This document shows positions 58,445 through 64,000 of a DNA stretch of 64,000 nt, in pieces. This DNA comes from Escherichia coli. GTDB taxonomy: Bacteria; Pseudomonadota; Gammaproteobacteria; Enterobacterales; Enterobacteriaceae. Each line of letters opens with the position of its first letter. Position 1 is the first letter of the stretch. The stretch lies in the NCBI RefSeq assembly GCF_003991155.1, contig NZ_CP031293.1; one strand, written 5' to 3'. Under the pieces are notes generated by a model. The model searched no databases. It was not told the origin of the DNA and worked only from the letters and a program-made list of their open reading frames with translations. The position numbers and the translations under genes are program-made.

Positions 58445-58820
58445 TGTGTTTACTCCTGATTAGCTATGTGTATTTGGCGATGCCTGATATGTCATCGCGG
58501 CAAAACGCGTCCATTGAATATAGCCAATATTTAAACCACCCGATCCAGCCCCAACATGCCGCGAGCCTGAATGAAACAGAGCAGCAACGTTCCCCATAAG
58601 GCGAGCGCCTATAAGTGTGATATTTGCTATCCGTAAAAGACAAAAATCGGCAAAACTGATGATATTTTCACGTAGACAAATAGTTATCTACACAACGTCA
58701 ATAAGGGCATATTCTTCAAAGATAATGTCCATTTCTGCCGACACACTCATACTCAGGCCGCCCCACTCCCTGGGGCTTAAATCTCTTACTGTTCACCGTT
58801 GCAGATATATCAAGTTCGTA

Positions 58821-60203
58821 TCAACCTGCCACACTCCCCCACACCAGTTGCCCTTTATGGAACGTTGCGGTTCTCGGCGAGATACGCGCCACCGCCTCGG
58901 CGGAACAGGAGGCGTCCACCAGCACAAAGCTGGCGTCATCCTGCGCTTTGGGCCACACGCGCTCGCCTTTTTCGTTGAGCGGCAATACATCGCCAGTGGC
59001 TAAAAACAGCGAACGGGACAAATTCTGTTCGTTAGGACGAATATAGAGCTGCGCGTAGAGATTGGCTTTTTCCAGCATGTCGCCCAGGCCGTAGGGAGAC
59101 CAGTGGTCGATAACGCTGTCGGTGCCGGTCATGACTTGTACGCCTTTGTCGTGCAACTGTTTGAGCGGCATATGCAGCGTGCCAATCGGCACCGTCGAGG
59201 CGATAGAAATTTGCTGCGCCGCCATCCGGTGCGCCAGTTCATCTACCTGTTGCTCATTGAGCGTTGCCAACGCAAAGGCGTGACTGATGGTCAGCTTGCC
59301 CTTCAGCTGTGGCGTTTTCTCTACCGTTTCAACCATATAATTGATGGCTGCCACGCCCGACGGAGTGGTTTCGTGCAGGTGAATATCGACGCCTTTGTCG
59401 TAGTCCAGCGCAATCTGGAACATGGTGTCGAGGGATTTTTCCATCGCGCCATCGACACTGGTCGGGTCCAGTCCGCCGACGTAATGCGCACCCGCCTGCA
59501 TCGCTTCGCGCATTAAGGGTTCTGATTTCGACAGCAGCAAACCGTGCTGCGGGAAGGCGACAATTTCACACTCGAAGCCCGCCTGACGTCGCGCCAGAAC
59601 CGCCTGCAAATTTTGCAGATTTTTCAGGCCGGAAACCGGTTCGATATTGCAGTGGCTGCGGGCAATGGTGGTGCCTTTCGACTGCAATAAATCGATCAGT
59701 TTTTCCGCCCGCTCCTGCGTGTACGGTTGTAACTCCGGCAGCATTTTCTGCTCGAGTTTGATCATGTCCTGGATGGTGGTGCCTGCCGGGCGATTGAGCG
59801 AGCGCCACGGCCCGCCGTAGAAAGTTTTGTCGAGATGAATATGCATGTCGCGGGTGGTGGGCAGCATCAACTTACCGCCTGCGTCATAGTGCGGCAGCGT
59901 GGCCTCCGGATGCTGCTTGTTCTCGCGCAGGGCAACAATTTTGCCGTTCTGAATCTCTACGGTCTGGTGCGCCGTGCGGGTCTGCACCGCCACACCGTTT
60001 TCGTAGTCAAAACCGGTTTCCAGCAGCACGTTGTCGAGATAGTAGTGCGGGTCAGTGATTTTCATGGTGTTATTTGCCTCGCAGTGGGTTGTGCCAGAGA
60101 CTGCCGCATGGGCGAGCGGCACTGAGGTACCAAACAGCGCGGCGGCGGTAACCATCTTACCGCTCTGGCTCAGAAATTCACGGCGGCTATTGTTTTCTTT
60201 CAT
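58821..60203 (-). CDS. yahJ: Amidohydrolase/deaminase-family protein with twin-arginine (Tat) signal peptide
   Basis: 460 aa; N-terminus MKENNSRREFLSQSGKMVTAAALFGTSVPLAHAAVSG (SRREFL Tat motif); metal-dependent hydrolase motifs (HIHLD). Confidence 0.85.
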   Translation of the reverse strand: MKENNSRREFLSQSGKMVTAAALFGTSVPLAHAAVSGTTHCEANNTMKITDPHYYLDNVLLETGFDYENGVAVQTRTAHQTVEIQNGKIVALRENKQHPEATLPHYDAGGKLMLPTTRDMHIHLDKTFYGGPWRSLNRPAGTTIQDMIKLEQKMLPELQPYTQERAEKLIDLLQSKGTTIARSHCNIEPVSGLKNLQNLQAVLARRQAGFECEIVAFPQHGLLLSKSEPLMREAMQAGAHYVGGLDPTSVDGAMEKSLDTMFQIALDYDKGVDIHLHETTPSGVAAINYMVETVEKTPQLKGKLTISHAFALATLNEQQVDELAHRMAAQQISIASTVPIGTLHMPLKQLHDKGVQVMTGTDSVIDHWSPYGLGDMLEKANLYAQLYIRPNEQNLSRSLFLATGDVLPLNEKGERVWPKAQDDASFVLVDASCSAEAVARISPRTATFHKGQLVWGSVAG

Positions 60204-60212
60204 CTTACGTCC

Positions 60213-61163
60213 TTAGGTTTTAATAATATGGGTGCCCGTTTCGCCGCGTAGCGCCGCAGGCAGGCATTCCGGCGTGGTGATAATCACTTTTTTACCGCCC
60301 TGCTCCAGGAACGTCAGGCTGGCGATGATTTTTGGCAACATGCTGCCGGGTGGGAAATGCCCTTCCTGCATATAGCGGGTCATGGTGGCAATATCCACCC
60401 GATCCAGCACCTGCTGCTGCGGTTTGCCAAAGTGAATACACACTTTTTCGACGCCAGTGGTGATCACCAGAATGTCGGCGTGAATTTCACGGGCCAATAG
60501 CGCGGTAGAGAGATCTTTGTCGATAACCGCGTCCACGCTTTGATAATCTCCCGCTTCGGTGCGCACCACAGGAATTCCACCGCCGCCCGCGCCAATCACC
60601 ACAAAGCCTTGTTGGATCAGCGCCTTAATGGCAGGTGCTTCGACAATACGTTTCGGTTCCGGCGAGGCGACCACGCGGCGATAGCCCCGTCCGGCATCTT
60701 CAACAAAACGCCAGTCAGGGTTTGCCTTTTGTAGTTCGTCACGCTGGCTTTCACTAAAGAATGCGCCGATGGGCTTGGTGGGATGGGCAAACCCCGGATC
60801 GTTTTTATCCACTTCCACCTGAGTCACCACGGTGACGGCTTTTTTCTCGCCGTGACGCGCCAGCCGGTTATTCAGCGCCTGCTGGATCAGATAGCCAATG
60901 CCGCCTTGCGTATCCGCCACACAGTTCGCCAGCGGCGTTAAGGGCAGCCCTTCGCGCTCGTGGGCAATCTCCGCGCGGCGTAAATCCAAACCGACCTGCG
61001 GTCCGTTGCCGTGGGTCAGCACAATGTCGTAATCGGAAGCCAGCATTTCCAGCACCGTATCGGCGACGGCCTTCACCGCCTCCGCCTGATGCTCAATCGA
61101 CTGGCTGGCGTTATCTTTGATAATGCTGTTGCCACCAATGGCAACGACCACAAGTTCTTTCAT
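60213..61163 (-). CDS. yahI: Carbamate kinase-like protein
   Basis: ORF-track frame to 61280 would overlap yahG; ATG at 61163 gives 316 aa MKELVVVAIGGNSIIKDNASQ... Confidence 0.85.
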   Translation of the reverse strand: MKELVVVAIGGNSIIKDNASQSIEHQAEAVKAVADTVLEMLASDYDIVLTHGNGPQVGLDLRRAEIAHEREGLPLTPLANCVADTQGGIGYLIQQALNNRLARHGEKKAVTVVTQVEVDKNDPGFAHPTKPIGAFFSESQRDELQKANPDWRFVEDAGRGYRRVVASPEPKRIVEAPAIKALIQQGFVVIGAGGGGIPVVRTEAGDYQSVDAVIDKDLSTALLAREIHADILVITTGVEKVCIHFGKPQQQVLDRVDIATMTRYMQEGHFPPGSMLPKIIASLTFLEQGGKKVIITTPECLPAALRGETGTHIIKT

Positions 61164-61258
61164 GTTGTTATGTCCGCTACAGAGGGTGATGGGGTTATGA
61201 GAGTGAGGTTGCCCTTCTCCCCAAAAGGGAGAAGGTATCGTAAGGTGCGGTTGGAGGG

Positions 61259-62677
61259 TCAGACGCCGTAACGTTCGCACCAGCCAAGAATGGCTTTCTC
61301 GAAGCAGGCGAAGGGTGGATGCACAATGCCCGCGCCAATCATGCCGACGCCCGCATCTTTATGGGCAATGGCGGTGTTGATCACCGGCAGAATGCCGCTG
61401 CTACCCACGCGGGTGATGTCGATTGCCGACGGCACGCCCATAAAACCGAGCAGCGGAATGGTCACGTTGGGGTTTTCGCCGAGAGTGATTTCGCGCATCT
61501 GACGGGAGAAATCGATAGCCTCTTCCACCGTACCGCCCACCAGCGCGACGATTGCAGGCGCGGTCGCCATAGCAAATCCGCCAATGCCGTAGGTTTCGGT
61601 GATGGCGCTGTCGCCGATATCCAGCCCCGAATCTTCCGGCTTATAACCGGCAAACATCGGGCCGATCACCTGCTGCGCCGGACCGGTAAACCATTGCCCC
61701 GGTAATCCGCTGACCCGCAGACCGAACTCGACGCCGTTACGCGCCATGGTGGTCACCACAGTGCTGTATTCGATGCCGTGCGCCGCATCCATCGCCGCTT
61801 TACACATCGCCATCCACGTCGGGCCGGAGAAGTAGTCACTGCTGGCGACAAACTCAAACACTTCGCGCTGTTGCTCGACGGAGTAGCCCGCCTGAATAAT
61901 CCCCGGCGTCAGCGCCTGAATCAGCAGCGTCGTCCCGGCGTTATTGCGGTTATGGCACTCATCGCCCATATGCAGCGCCTGCGCCAGCATTAAGCGCAGA
62001 TCGATTTCGCCGATAATTTTCATCGCGTCGCGCAGCATGGGTCCCTGCACATCGCGCATCCAGTTGAGGCGGTCGATCACGCTCTGGTCATTAGCGCCCA
62101 TACGCAAAATCTTCGCCATCTGCTCGCTCATGTTGGTATAAGCGATGTTGCCGTAGGTTTTGTTTTTCACGATGTGCATAAACATCGAGGCCGAGGTGAC
62201 GCCCGCCATCGATCCCACACAGTCGTGCTCGTGGCACGGCGAGAAAGTGATCTCACCGGAAGCCGCCAGTTCAGCCGCCTCGTCGAGATCTTTCGCCAGC
62301 CCTTCGAACACCAGCGCCCCGGTGACCGCGCCTTTCATCGCGCCGCACATTTTTTCCCAGGTGACCGGCGGCCCGGCGTGAAGAATGGTTTTCGGCGTCA
62401 TGCCCGGCACCACGTTAATCGCCTGATCAAAACCAATCAGCACCGGATGTGACTGAATAATGCGTTCCAGCGCCTGCTGGTTAGCGGCGGCGATTTTGTC
62501 TGCCAGCGGCGAATCGGCAATGTTGTCCAGCGCCTGCACCACCTGCATATTGCCCTGCCCCGGCGGCGTCCAGTCGAGTTGAGTCACTTCTACATGCTGC
62601 TTTTTCAAATCATCGCTAAACATGGCGATGCCGACGTTAATAACGTTCAACGGTTGGCTAAACAGTGACGGGCTCAT
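61259..62677 (-). CDS. yahG: DUF1116-family protein YahG
   Basis: 472 aa; start ATG overlaps yahF stop (ATGA), implying translational coupling. Confidence 0.8.
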   Translation of the reverse strand: MSPSLFSQPLNVINVGIAMFSDDLKKQHVEVTQLDWTPPGQGNMQVVQALDNIADSPLADKIAAANQQALERIIQSHPVLIGFDQAINVVPGMTPKTILHAGPPVTWEKMCGAMKGAVTGALVFEGLAKDLDEAAELAASGEITFSPCHEHDCVGSMAGVTSASMFMHIVKNKTYGNIAYTNMSEQMAKILRMGANDQSVIDRLNWMRDVQGPMLRDAMKIIGEIDLRLMLAQALHMGDECHNRNNAGTTLLIQALTPGIIQAGYSVEQQREVFEFVASSDYFSGPTWMAMCKAAMDAAHGIEYSTVVTTMARNGVEFGLRVSGLPGQWFTGPAQQVIGPMFAGYKPEDSGLDIGDSAITETYGIGGFAMATAPAIVALVGGTVEEAIDFSRQMREITLGENPNVTIPLLGFMGVPSAIDITRVGSSGILPVINTAIAHKDAGVGMIGAGIVHPPFACFEKAILGWCERYGV

Positions 62678-64000
62678 CAGGCTTCCTCCCCTTTGCAGAT
62701 AAATTCACGCGCCAGCAATCCGGTATTGGTGCTGCTGCTCGCCAGAATCACTCCGGCATCAAGCAGCATCTGGCTTTGTTGTTCTAATGATGGCGTATCA
62801 AGATCGGTACCCAGCACATAGGCGAGAATGATCAACTCGCGTCCTTCGGCAGCGGCGATCGCTTTCGCCTCTTTGATCGCCTCGATGGTGGAACCGACCG
62901 GATCTTCATGCGATCCAAACCCGAGCACAAAATCCATCACGATCACCGCCACTTCTGGATCGCGCGCTTCTTCGATCAACCGGCTGATGCGGTTGGTCGG
63001 GTCAATCATTGGATGCGGCTTGCCGTTGGTAAAATCGTCATCGCCAAAGTCGAGGAAGGTATGTTTGACGCAGCGGTTGATATCTTTCAGGCGGAATTCA
63101 GGATCGGGCTGGATGTTGCTGTAGACATCGCCGTGTTTTTCCATCACCGCGAACATGGTTTCGTCACACAGCGTACCGCCGCAGAACAGGCCACGAATGT
63201 ATTTCTGTTGTGGCTTCAGGCGAGCGCGCACGTCAGCAATCAATGGCTGGTTCAGGGTATGCAGATCGAGATGTTCCTGTTTCACGCCGGAGAGCATTAC
63301 CGCTTTCAGCGCCGCTTCTTTGCTGCCGCGAGCAAACTGTAGCCCCTGCTCATCCACTGGCGTTTCGCCACGACCGAGGAAGCAGACCACCACCGGCTTG
63401 CGGCAGGCACGTGCGCGTTCCAGCACTTTGCGGGCCACCGCAGGCGCAGGCGGTTTGGAGATAAGCACAATGATTTCAGTTTGCGGATCGTTTTCCAGCA
63501 TCCCGATGGCATCGAGCATCATCAGACCGCCGATTTTCTCGCTCAGGTCGCGCCCGCCGGTGCCAATCAGTTGCGAAACGCCGCCGCAAAATTCATGGAT
63601 ACGGACGCTCAGTTCCTGGCTGCCGGTGCCAGATGCGCCAACAATGCCGATGTTGCCGCGACGCACGGCGTTACCAAAGCAGAGCGCCGCGCCGTTGATA
63701 ATCGCCGTACCGCAGTCTGGCCCCATCATCAGCAGCCCTTTTTCGTGGGCCAACTGTTTGAGCGCCAGTTCATCTTCAACTGAGACGTTATCGGAAAACA
63801 GCATCACGTTAAGATCGTTTTGCAGCGCCTGACGCGCTTCGCGAGCGGCAAACAGACCGTTGACCGAAATCACCGCCAGGTTACTTTCCGGGATATGCTT
63901 TTTGGCGCTGGCAATAGTGGCATAGCGTGCTTCATGTGAACCAGTTTGAGCTTTGGTGTTGAACAGTTCTTCAATCTCCACCAGCAACTGCTCGTTGTCT
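62677..64000 (-). CDS. yahF: FdrA-like (CoA-binding, succinyl-CoA-synthetase-like) protein, 3' part only (5' end beyond window end)
   Basis: Frame open to window end; track 'start' at 63987 is an in-frame TTG, not the true start. Confidence 0.8.
   Translation of the reverse strand, partial: DNEQLLVEIEELFNTKAQTGSHEARYATIASAKKHIPESNLAVISVNGLFAAREARQALQNDLNVMLFSDNVSVEDELALKQLAHEKGLLMMGPDCGTAIINGAALCFGNAVRRGNIGIVGASGTGSQELSVRIHEFCGGVSQLIGTGGRDLSEKIGGLMMLDAIGMLENDPQTEIIVLISKPPAPAVARKVLERARACRKPVVVCFLGRGETPVDEQGLQFARGSKEAALKAVMLSGVKQEHLDLHTLNQPLIADVRARLKPQQKYIRGLFCGGTLCDETMFAVMEKHGDVYSNIQPDPEFRLKDINRCVKHTFLDFGDDDFTNGKPHPMIDPTNRISRLIEEARDPEVAVIVMDFVLGFGSHEDPVGSTIEAIKEAKAIAAAEGRELIILAYVLGTDLDTPSLEQQSQMLLDAGVILASSSTNTGLLAREFICKGEEA

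What the first reader, a model, noticed from the sequence alone, without database searches (positions are those of the whole stretch)
60093..60203. Twin-arginine signal on YahJ amidohydrolase
The N-terminus MKENNSRREFLSQSGKMVTAAALFGTSVPLAHAAVSG has an S-R-R-x-F-L motif followed by a hydrophobic stretch and an AxA cleavage context, so a folded, probably metal-loaded hydrolase is exported to the periplasm while its operon partners are cytoplasmic.
Basis: seen in the sequence. Interest (0 to 1): 0.25.

Follow-up and report, generated by a model that had tools for sequence, protein, structure and literature searches.

The report
Known Tat export signal on YahJ
The first 33 amino acids of the E. 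coli amidohydrolase YahJ are a genuine, strongly conserved twin-arginine export signal, but it has been listed as a Tat signal since the early 2000s and tested with reporter fusions, so the finding is correct and not new.

Summary
Window 60093-60203 (minus strand) encodes MKENNSRREFLSQSGKMVTAAALFGTSVPLAHAAVSG, the N-terminus of the 460-aa yahJ ORF (58821-60203), in an E. coli yahF-yahG-yahI-yahJ-yahK locus.

The peptide has an SRREFLS motif, a 17-residue uncharged and weakly hydrophobic core, and A-H-A. It scores 13.3 bits on a matrix built from 23 other E. coli Tat signals. The 104 other window ORFs reach at most 4.8.

In 90 of 91 species-level orthologues the RRxF[LIV] motif is kept. R7 and F10 are invariant and A33 is 95% conserved, while the linker after the cleavage site and the internal Met47 are not conserved. 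More distant homologues (46% identity or less) mostly lack the extension, so the signal is a clade-specific addition to a cytoplasmic AtzC/cytosine-deaminase-like enzyme whose metal ligands are invariant.

YahD, E, F, G and I have no signal or membrane segments.

This is already known. YahJ is in TATFIND and TatP substrate lists, and ssYahJ reporter fusions are reported to export by both Tat and Sec. Native YahJ localisation remains untested.

Side observations: two thirds of related operons carry an unclassified 12-TM protein that E. coli has lost, and the most faithful neighbours of YahJ are a LysR regulator and the ankyrin protein YahD.

The parts
58821..60203 (-). yahJ coding sequence (460 aa plus stop): Tat-signal amidohydrolase precursor
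   Evidence: ORF and translation. It is 100% identical to annotated yahJ in E. coli NZ_CP029747. NCBIfam PRK06846 scores 715 bits and Pfam Amidohydro_3 also matches.
60210..60214 (-). Shine-Dalgarno AAGGA, 6 nt upstream of the yahJ ATG and directly after the yahI stop codon (60213-60215)
   Evidence: Read from the sequence. No minus-strand promoter or terminator was found between yahI and yahJ.
60105..60203 (-). Predicted signal peptide, residues 1-33 (MKENNSRREFLSQSGKMVTAAALFGTSVPLAHA)
   Evidence: The same 33 residues (with S4 in place of N4) are listed as the Tat signal of YahJ by TatP in PMC7549933 Table 2.
60168..60188 (-). Twin-arginine motif S6-R-R-E-F-L-S12 (RR at 60180-60185)
   Evidence: R7 is 100% conserved, R8 99%, F10 100% and L11 93% in 87 orthologues. 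RRxF[LIV] is present in 90 of 91 species.
60114..60155 (-). h-region, residues 17-30 (MVTAAALFGTSVPL), weakly hydrophobic
   Evidence: The best 13-residue Kyte-Doolittle mean is 1.54, against 1.65 +/- 0.25 for 23 E. coli Tat signals and 2.0-2.75 for four Sec-type signals in the same window.
60105..60113 (-). c-region A31-H32-A33, predicted signal peptidase I site (cleavage after A33)
   Evidence: A31 is 77% and A33 95% conserved. A small-x-small pattern lies at the corresponding distance in all 90 RR-bearing species.
60060..60104 (-). Variable linker, residues 34-48, between the cleavage site and the catalytic domain. It contains the non-conserved Met47 (60063-60065).
   Evidence: Mean top-residue frequency is 0.35, against 0.86 in the domain, and Met47 is present in 39%. 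The family profile PRK06846 starts at residue 49.
58824..60059 (-). Amidohydrolase (AtzC/cytosine-deaminase-like) catalytic domain, residues 49-460. The HxH motif H121/H123 lies at 59835-59843.
   Evidence: Closest solved structures are 6nbo and AtzC, then cytosine deaminase. H121, H123, H275, H277, E278, H308 and D362 are invariant in 87 sequences.
60213..61166 (-). yahI, carbamate kinase family, no signal peptide
61167..61258 (-). 92-nt yahG-yahI gap. This is the slot occupied in many other genera by a gene for a 12-TM membrane protein.
   Evidence: In K-12 this slot is 'yahH, filled with REP23 sites' (PMC11551758).
61259..62677 (-). yahG, AllG-family (DUF1116) protein, no signal peptide
62677..64000 (-). 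yahF (FdrA/AllF-like), cut by the window end

Best explanation
Residues 1-33 of YahJ are a cleavable twin-arginine (Tat) signal peptide fused to an AtzC/cytosine-deaminase-like metal amidohydrolase.

Shown here:
- Translation starts at the ATG at 60203, which has a good Shine-Dalgarno sequence and is coupled to yahI.
- The motif S-R-R-E-F-L-S, a weakly hydrophobic 14-17-residue core and A-H-A are all present. They are conserved in the pattern expected of a working Tat signal across about 90 species.
- The catalytic domain has an intact metal site.
- The signal is an add-on that more distant homologues mostly lack.

Inferred from established Tat biology:
- The precursor folds and binds its metal in the cytoplasm.
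- The RR motif is recognised by TatBC, the folded protein crosses via TatA, and signal peptidase I cuts after A33.
- This releases a 427-residue periplasmic enzyme.

Inferred from gene context:
- In the periplasm the enzyme hydrolyses or deaminates an unknown amino- or amido-heterocycle.
- In genera that keep the 12-TM protein, the product may be imported and broken down by the AllFGH-like carbamoyltransferase (YahEFG) and the carbamate kinase (YahI).
For: - Sequence and start site.
- Score against 23 known E. coli Tat signals compared with the window background.
- h-region hydrophobicity is Tat-like and lower than four Sec signals in the same window.
- Column conservation: R7 100%, R8 99%, F10 100%, A33 95%, with a variable linker.
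- RRxF[LIV] is present in 90 of 91 species from a scan of 100,044 genomes, with no K substitutions.
- Signal-less distant homologues start at the core, and the family profile starts at residue 49.
- Metal ligands are invariant.
- TIGR01409 gives a weak positive (E = 0.033) and TIGR02811 gives E = 0.004.
Against: - TIGR01409 is below its curated cutoff (14.6 against 16.7 bits) and Pfam TAT_signal gives no hit.
- ssYahJ is described as recognised by both Tat and Sec. There is no basic 'Sec-avoidance' residue in the c-region, so the signal alone does not enforce Tat routing.
- No experiment on native YahJ localisation, processing or metal content was found in the searchable literature.
- The primary paper (Tullman-Ercek 2007) could not be read.
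Confidence: 0.85

Rival explanations
1. The peptide is a working export signal, but native YahJ is carried mainly by Sec in an unfolded state. The RR motif would then be tolerated rather than required.
For: [quoted passage not shown] The c-region carries no positive charge.
Against: A Sec signal needs only positive charge in the n-region. Yet R-R-x-F-[LIV] is kept in 90 of 91 species with no lysine substitutions, and F10 is invariant. The h-region is much less hydrophobic than the Sec signals in the same window. The passenger is a cofactor-binding TIM-barrel enzyme from a family that is otherwise cytoplasmic.
Confidence: 0.1
2. The annotated start is wrong. Translation begins at Met47 (MKITDPHYY...), giving a cytoplasmic enzyme, and the upstream 'signal' is untranslated or produces only a minor isoform.
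For: The family profile PRK06846 begins at residue 49, next to Met47. Many distant homologues start at this point. A GAGG lies 11 nt upstream of the Met47 codon.
Against: Met47 is present in only 39% of orthologues, whereas the upstream reading frame stays open and keeps its signal-like pattern in about 90 species. The Shine-Dalgarno sequence before Met1 is stronger and better spaced. RefSeq annotates the 460-aa form.
Confidence: 0.03
3. The N-terminus is not cleaved and acts as a membrane anchor, or the protein is a lipoprotein acylated at Cys41.
For: A Cys lies 8 residues after the predicted cleavage site, and it is present in 37 of 87 orthologues.
Against: There is no lipobox: the residues before Cys41 are T-T-H. 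Cys41 is not conserved. A-x-A is conserved at positions -3 and -1. No 19-residue window reaches the membrane-segment hydrophobicity threshold.
Confidence: 0.02

Closest known systems
Canonical E. coli Tat signal peptides (SufI, AmiA/AmiC, CueO, MdoD, EfeB and others; consensus S/T-R-R-x-F-L-K)
   Same: YahJ has an n-region with S-R-R-x-F-L, a weakly hydrophobic core of 13 or more uncharged residues, and an AxA c-region. Its length of 33 compares with a mean of 33.5. YahJ is itself on these published lists.
   Different: The consensus Lys after F-L is Ser here, and a conserved Lys sits four residues further on (K16, 93%). There is no basic residue in the c-region. The signal is reported to be Sec-compatible, unlike TorA. 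The passenger carries no complex redox cofactor.
AtzC (N-isopropylammelide isopropylaminohydrolase), PDB 6nbo, and cytosine deaminase CodA: the amidohydrolase-superfamily subgroup
   Same: Best PDB sequence matches are 6nbo at E = 4e-44, AtzC at 5e-30 and CodA at 1e-16 to 1e-19. The HxH, H, H and D metal ligands align and are invariant.
   Different: The PDB alignments begin only at YahJ residue 77 or later, so the N-terminal extension has no counterpart in them. The substrate of YahJ is unknown. YahJ falls in its own NCBIfam subfamily, PRK06846.
allF-allG-allH-allK (fdrA-ylbE-ylbF-ybcF): the oxamate carbamoyltransferase and carbamate kinase cluster of anaerobic allantoin degradation
   Same: The neighbours YahE, YahF, YahG and YahI hit the AllH, FdrA/AllF, AllG and carbamate kinase families.
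   Different: The domain-level resemblance applies to the neighbours, not to YahJ. The all cluster has no Tat-exported amidohydrolase partner that I know of (from memory, not tested). YahJ also occurs without this cassette in Erwinia, Cedecea, Pragia, Xenorhabdus and Shewanella.

Membership tests
Twin-arginine (Tat) signal peptide | Twin-arginine consensus S/T-R-R-x-F-L-K near the N-terminus | tested here: met
   S6-R-R-E-F-L-S12 matches 6 of the 7 consensus positions. It is the only ORF of 105 in the window with [ST]RR.F[LI] in its first 35 residues.
Twin-arginine (Tat) signal peptide | Uncharged, only moderately hydrophobic h-region of at least 13 residues after the motif | tested here: met
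   The uncharged stretch is 17 residues. The best 13-residue Kyte-Doolittle mean is 1.54, within 1.65 +/- 0.25 for 23 known signals and below four Sec signals in the window at 2.0-2.75.
Twin-arginine (Tat) signal peptide | c-region with an A-x-A signal peptidase I site | tested here: met
   A31-H-A33 is present. A33 is 95% and A31 77% conserved, followed by a variable linker.
Twin-arginine (Tat) signal peptide | Match to the curated profile TIGR01409 / Pfam TAT_signal above threshold | tested here: inconclusive
   TIGR01409 scores 14.6 bits (E = 0.033), below the cutoff of 16.7. Pfam gives no hit. A home-made matrix from 23 E. coli Tat signals gives 13.3 bits, above 6 of 23 leave-one-out positives and far above the background.
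Twin-arginine (Tat) signal peptide | Evolutionary retention of RR (not KR, RK or KK) in orthologues | tested here: met
   90 of 91 species keep RRxF[LIV]. The one exception has RH.
Twin-arginine (Tat) signal peptide | Export abolished in tat mutants or by RR-to-KK substitution | not testable with these tools
   Only second-hand evidence is available. ssYahJ reporter fusions are reported as exported via Tat and also Sec (PMC6788121 citing Tullman-Ercek 2007 and Fisher 2008). The primary papers are not held.
Amidohydrolase superfamily, AtzC/cytosine-deaminase-like subgroup | Family profile above the curated cutoff | tested here: met
   NCBIfam PRK06846 scores 715 bits (cutoff 447). Pfam Amidohydro_3 scores 66 bits (cutoff 29.7).
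Amidohydrolase superfamily, AtzC/cytosine-deaminase-like subgroup | Metal-binding HxH (strand 1), His (strand 5), His (strand 6) and Asp (strand 8) | tested here: met
   H121/H123 align to H60/H62 of AtzC. H275/H277, H308 and D362 align to the corresponding His and Asp residues of 6nbo in the printed alignment. All are invariant in 87 orthologues.
Amidohydrolase superfamily, AtzC/cytosine-deaminase-like subgroup | Demonstrated substrate and metal content | not testable with these tools
   No biochemical data were found.

The most novel reading that the evidence does not exclude
YahJ may be the periplasmic front end of a split pathway. Under this reading it would convert an external N-heterocycle in the periplasm. 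An unclassified 12-TM protein, present between yahG and yahI in about two thirds of related operons but deleted in Escherichia, Klebsiella, Raoultella and Kluyvera, would import the product. The AllFGH-like carbamoyltransferase and the carbamate kinase would then harvest ATP from it.

The signal-less ankyrin protein YahD is, together with the LysR regulator, the gene most consistently found next to yahJ. It could be a dedicated cytoplasmic chaperone or inhibitor that holds the folded enzyme until Tat export.
Probability: 0.2. Interest if true: 0.45.

Novelty: already known. Interest (0 to 1): 0.1.

Why it matters
Recognition of the signal adds nothing new, because YahJ is a standard entry in E. 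coli Tat substrate lists and its signal peptide is already used as a secretion tag. The open questions are what the exported enzyme acts on, and why it is encoded next to cytoplasmic carbamoyl-group catabolic genes. The comparative data gathered here give concrete handles for those questions. The signal was added to a cytoplasmic enzyme family. A transporter-like gene has been lost from the E. coli operon. YahD plus a LysR regulator are the most consistent neighbours.

Tried and rejected
- I tried to read the primary experimental papers: Tullman-Ercek 2007 by PubMed id and PMC2730154, Fisher 2008 (PMC3057487) and the Lee 2006 review (PMC2654714). None is held, so the Tat/Sec routing of ssYahJ rests on a secondary citation.
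- Pfam TAT_signal gave no hit on the 46-residue N-terminus.
- Literature searches for yahJ, b0324 and ssYahJ found no localisation or enzymology of the native protein.
- A lipoprotein reading was rejected because there is no lipobox before Cys41.
- An internal start at Met47 was rejected because that residue is not conserved.
- I looked for a promoter or terminator between yahI and yahJ on the coding strand and found none.
- The 12-TM protein could not be assigned to any Pfam, NCBIfam or PDB family.
- I considered modelling a YahD-YahJ complex. I did not run it, because the structure tool returns no interface information.
- Signal-less homologues P0130 and P0133 sit in unrelated gene contexts and gave no functional clue.

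Full report
**Observation.** The minus strand of window 58821-60203 is a 460-codon ORF. Its first 37 residues are exactly the peptide quoted, MKENNSRREFLSQSGKMVTAAALFGTSVPLAHAAVSG, and correspond to 60093-60203. The stretch is 100% identical to annotated yahJ ('amidohydrolase family protein') in E. coli chromosomes. A match is found in 5086 of 5426 complete E. coli genomes. The local gene order is yahD-yahE-fdrA(yahF)-yahG-yahI-yahJ-yahK. In the window, yahF is cut by the end at 64000. The ATG at 60203 is preceded by AAGGA with a 6-nt spacer and lies 9 nt after the yahI stop. No promoter-like or terminator-like site lies between the two genes on the coding strand.

**Is it more than chance?** The strict motif [ST]RR.F[LI] in the first 35 residues occurs in one ORF of the 105 window ORFs of at least 100 aa, and that ORF is yahJ. 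Composition alone predicts about 0.5 such proteins per 4300, before a hydrophobic core or AxA site is required. I took the 23 other E. coli Tat signal sequences tabulated in PMC7549933 and built a position matrix anchored on RR. YahJ scores 13.3 bits, which is above 6 of the 23 leave-one-out positives. The other 104 window ORFs average -14.7 (sd 6.8), and the best of them, a Sec lipoprotein signal, reaches 4.8.

YahJ also sits inside the range of the known signals on simple measures:

| Measure | YahJ | 23 known E. coli Tat signals |
|---|---|---|
| Signal length | 33 | mean 33.5 |
| Uncharged stretch | 17 | mean 18.7 |
| Best 13-residue hydropathy | 1.54 | 1.65 +/- 0.25 |

Four Sec-type signals in the same window are clearly more hydrophobic, at 2.0-2.75. 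The curated profile TIGR01409 detects the peptide only below threshold (14.6 bits, cutoff 16.7, E = 0.033). Pfam gives nothing. I treat this as an insensitive classifier rather than as counter-evidence, but it is recorded.

**Conservation.** The 120 closest database relatives run from Citrobacter, Klebsiella, Enterobacter, Serratia, Xenorhabdus, Erwinia, Cedecea and Pragia to Aeromonas and Shewanella, down to 70% identity. They keep [SNQ]-R-R-x-F-[LI] almost without exception. The column statistics over 87 non-redundant orthologues are as follows:

| Position or region | Top-residue frequency |
|---|---|
| R7 | 100% |
| R8 | 99% |
| F10 | 100% |
| L11 | 93% |
| K16 | 93% |
| A31 | 77% |
| A33 | 95% |
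| Linker, residues 34-48 | 0.35 (mean) |
| Met47 | 39% |
| Catalytic domain | 0.86 (mean) |

A DNA-pattern scan of one genome per species (100,044 species) for the conserved HYYLDNVLLE core returned 96 stretches, of which 95 encode a YahJ orthologue. Of 91 readable N-termini, 90 have RRxF[LIV] followed at the right distance by small-x-small. One, Xenorhabdus szentirmaii, has R-H. No orthologue replaces an arginine by lysine. That is what selection for Tat recognition predicts, and selection for a Sec n-region does not predict it. This pattern also rules out Met47 as the general start codon.

**Where the signal came from.** NCBIfam PRK06846, the subfamily YahJ belongs to (715 bits), aligns from residue 49 onwards. 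In an exhaustive search of 50%-identity representatives, relatives at about 49-62% identity carry RR extensions (P0122, P0123, P0125, P0134). A few more distant ones do too (P0145, P0215). Most homologues at 46% identity or less begin directly at the catalytic core. The Tat signal is therefore a clade-specific N-terminal addition to an otherwise cytoplasmic enzyme family.

**The passenger.** The best matches among solved structures are 6nbo and AtzC (N-isopropylammelide isopropylaminohydrolase), followed by cytosine deaminases. The HxH motif (H121, H123) aligns with H60/H62 of AtzC. H275/H277, E278, H308 and D362 align with the other conserved positions, and all are invariant in 87 orthologues. 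'Probably metal-loaded' is thus well founded. The identity of the metal and of the substrate is unknown.

**Mechanism.** Three things are shown here: a correctly placed start, a signal with all three Tat regions, and purifying selection on exactly the residues that matter for Tat recognition and for signal peptidase cleavage. The following steps are inferred from established knowledge of the Tat pathway (my knowledge, not tested). The precursor folds and acquires its metal in the cytoplasm. TatBC recognises the RR motif and TatA mediates passage. Signal peptidase I cleaves after A33 to give a 427-residue periplasmic enzyme.

The literature supports export competence. YahJ is scored positive in a TATFIND-based comparison (PMC3027627) and by TatP (PMC7549933). 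A yahJ deletion in an ExPEC strain had a mild competitive defect, with a competitive index of 0.70 and p = 0.02. [quoted passage not shown] The lack of any basic residue in the c-region fits that promiscuity. Routing of the native protein therefore depends on the folding of the passenger, and I could find no evidence that it has been measured.

**The 'cytoplasmic partners' point.** YahD, YahE, YahF, YahG and YahI have no N-terminal signal and no membrane-like segment. The only borderline window is internal in YahG. YahE, F and G hit the AllH, FdrA/AllF and AllG families, and YahI is a carbamate kinase. The cassette therefore resembles the oxamate carbamoyltransferase and carbamate kinase genes of the allantoin cluster (background in PMC3364942 and PMC12928451).

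The comparative picture softens the paradox. Of 73 species loci with at least 1.3 kb of upstream sequence, yahJ is preceded by the following:

| Gene immediately upstream of yahJ | Species loci | Examples |
|---|---|---|
| Carbamate kinase | 60 | Escherichia, Citrobacter, Enterobacter, Klebsiella |
| Ankyrin gene yahD directly | 6 | Erwinia, Cedecea |
| None of these genes | 7 | Xenorhabdus, Shewanella |

Where the cassette is present and enough sequence is available, 29 of 43 loci carry an additional 515-516-residue protein between yahG and yahI. It has 12 membrane-like segments and no Pfam, NCBIfam or PDB match. Escherichia, Klebsiella, Raoultella and Kluyvera lack it. In this window the slot is a 92-nt gap at 61167-61258, and in K-12 it is described as REP-filled 'yahH'. 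A periplasmic enzyme, an importer and a cytoplasmic ATP-yielding breakdown would make a coherent layout, but that is conjecture.

**Novelty and verdict.** The finding is correct and already known. Its interest is low. The side observations are the only parts that might repay further work, and none of them was tested beyond gene-neighbourhood counts. They are the lost 12-TM gene, the YahD-YahJ-LysR core, and a plasmid-borne copy of the cassette without yahJ.

Noticed in passing
window 61167-61258 (yahG-yahI gap); L004 7365-8915; L002 7300-8847: In 29 of 43 related operons a 515-516-aa protein with 12 membrane-like segments is encoded between yahG and yahI. It has no Pfam, NCBIfam or PDB match, and is about 91% identical between Chania and Citrobacter. 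E. coli, Klebsiella, Raoultella and Kluyvera lack it. In this window only a 92-nt gap remains, containing a perfect 10-bp hairpin (CCUUCUCCCC/GGGGAGAAGG).
   Followed up: partly
L003 9367-11389; L010 9347-11386; L011 9010-11401: In Erwinia, Cedecea and Pragia the Tat-signal YahJ gene directly follows the signal-less ankyrin-repeat gene yahD, with a LysR regulator nearby. The two genes overlap by 8 nt in Erwinia, and no yahEFGI genes are present. The LysR regulator, YahD and YahJ look like the core unit, and the carbamoyltransferase/kinase cassette looks like an insertion between yahD and yahJ.
   Followed up: partly
L109 (E. coli IncFII plasmid NZ_JBVWEU010000002.1, 3107-11540): 142 of 5426 E. 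coli genomes carry a homologue of the 12-TM gene (about 86% nucleotide identity to Citrobacter), mostly on plasmids. In the one plasmid examined it sits in a second copy of the cluster (LysR, ankyrin, AllH, FdrA, YlbE, 12-TM protein, carbamate kinase). That copy is bounded by IS remnants and lacks yahJ.
   Followed up: partly
window 58700-60400 compared with E. coli genomes; L015, L028, L029: The yahI-yahJ stretch of this window is only 90-95% identical to the corresponding DNA in 2814 E. coli genomes and at least 99% identical in just 49. Its YahJ protein is 97-98% identical to those of Escherichia albertii and Pseudocitrobacter. This suggests divergent allele classes or inter-genus exchange at this locus.
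   Followed up: no
proteins P0012, P0015, P0018, P0027, P0034, P0009 (E. coli YahJ variants): Several rare E. coli YahJ alleles keep the signal peptide but carry different in-frame internal deletions of 26-46 residues in the catalytic domain. One of them removes residues 265-310, which include metal ligands H275, H277 and H308. These alleles may be decaying in some strains.
   Followed up: partly
L107 / P0089 (Xenorhabdus szentirmaii): This is the only orthologue in which the twin arginine is R-H (NRHEFL). It could be a natural loss or weakening of Tat targeting.
   Followed up: no
proteins P0001, P0003, P0004, P0008 (metagenome/assembly calls of 677-780 aa): A few single-member database entries fuse the carbamate kinase YahI and YahJ into one ORF, which would bury the Tat signal internally. 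These are probably sequencing or gene-calling errors at the 9-nt yahI-yahJ junction.
   Followed up: no
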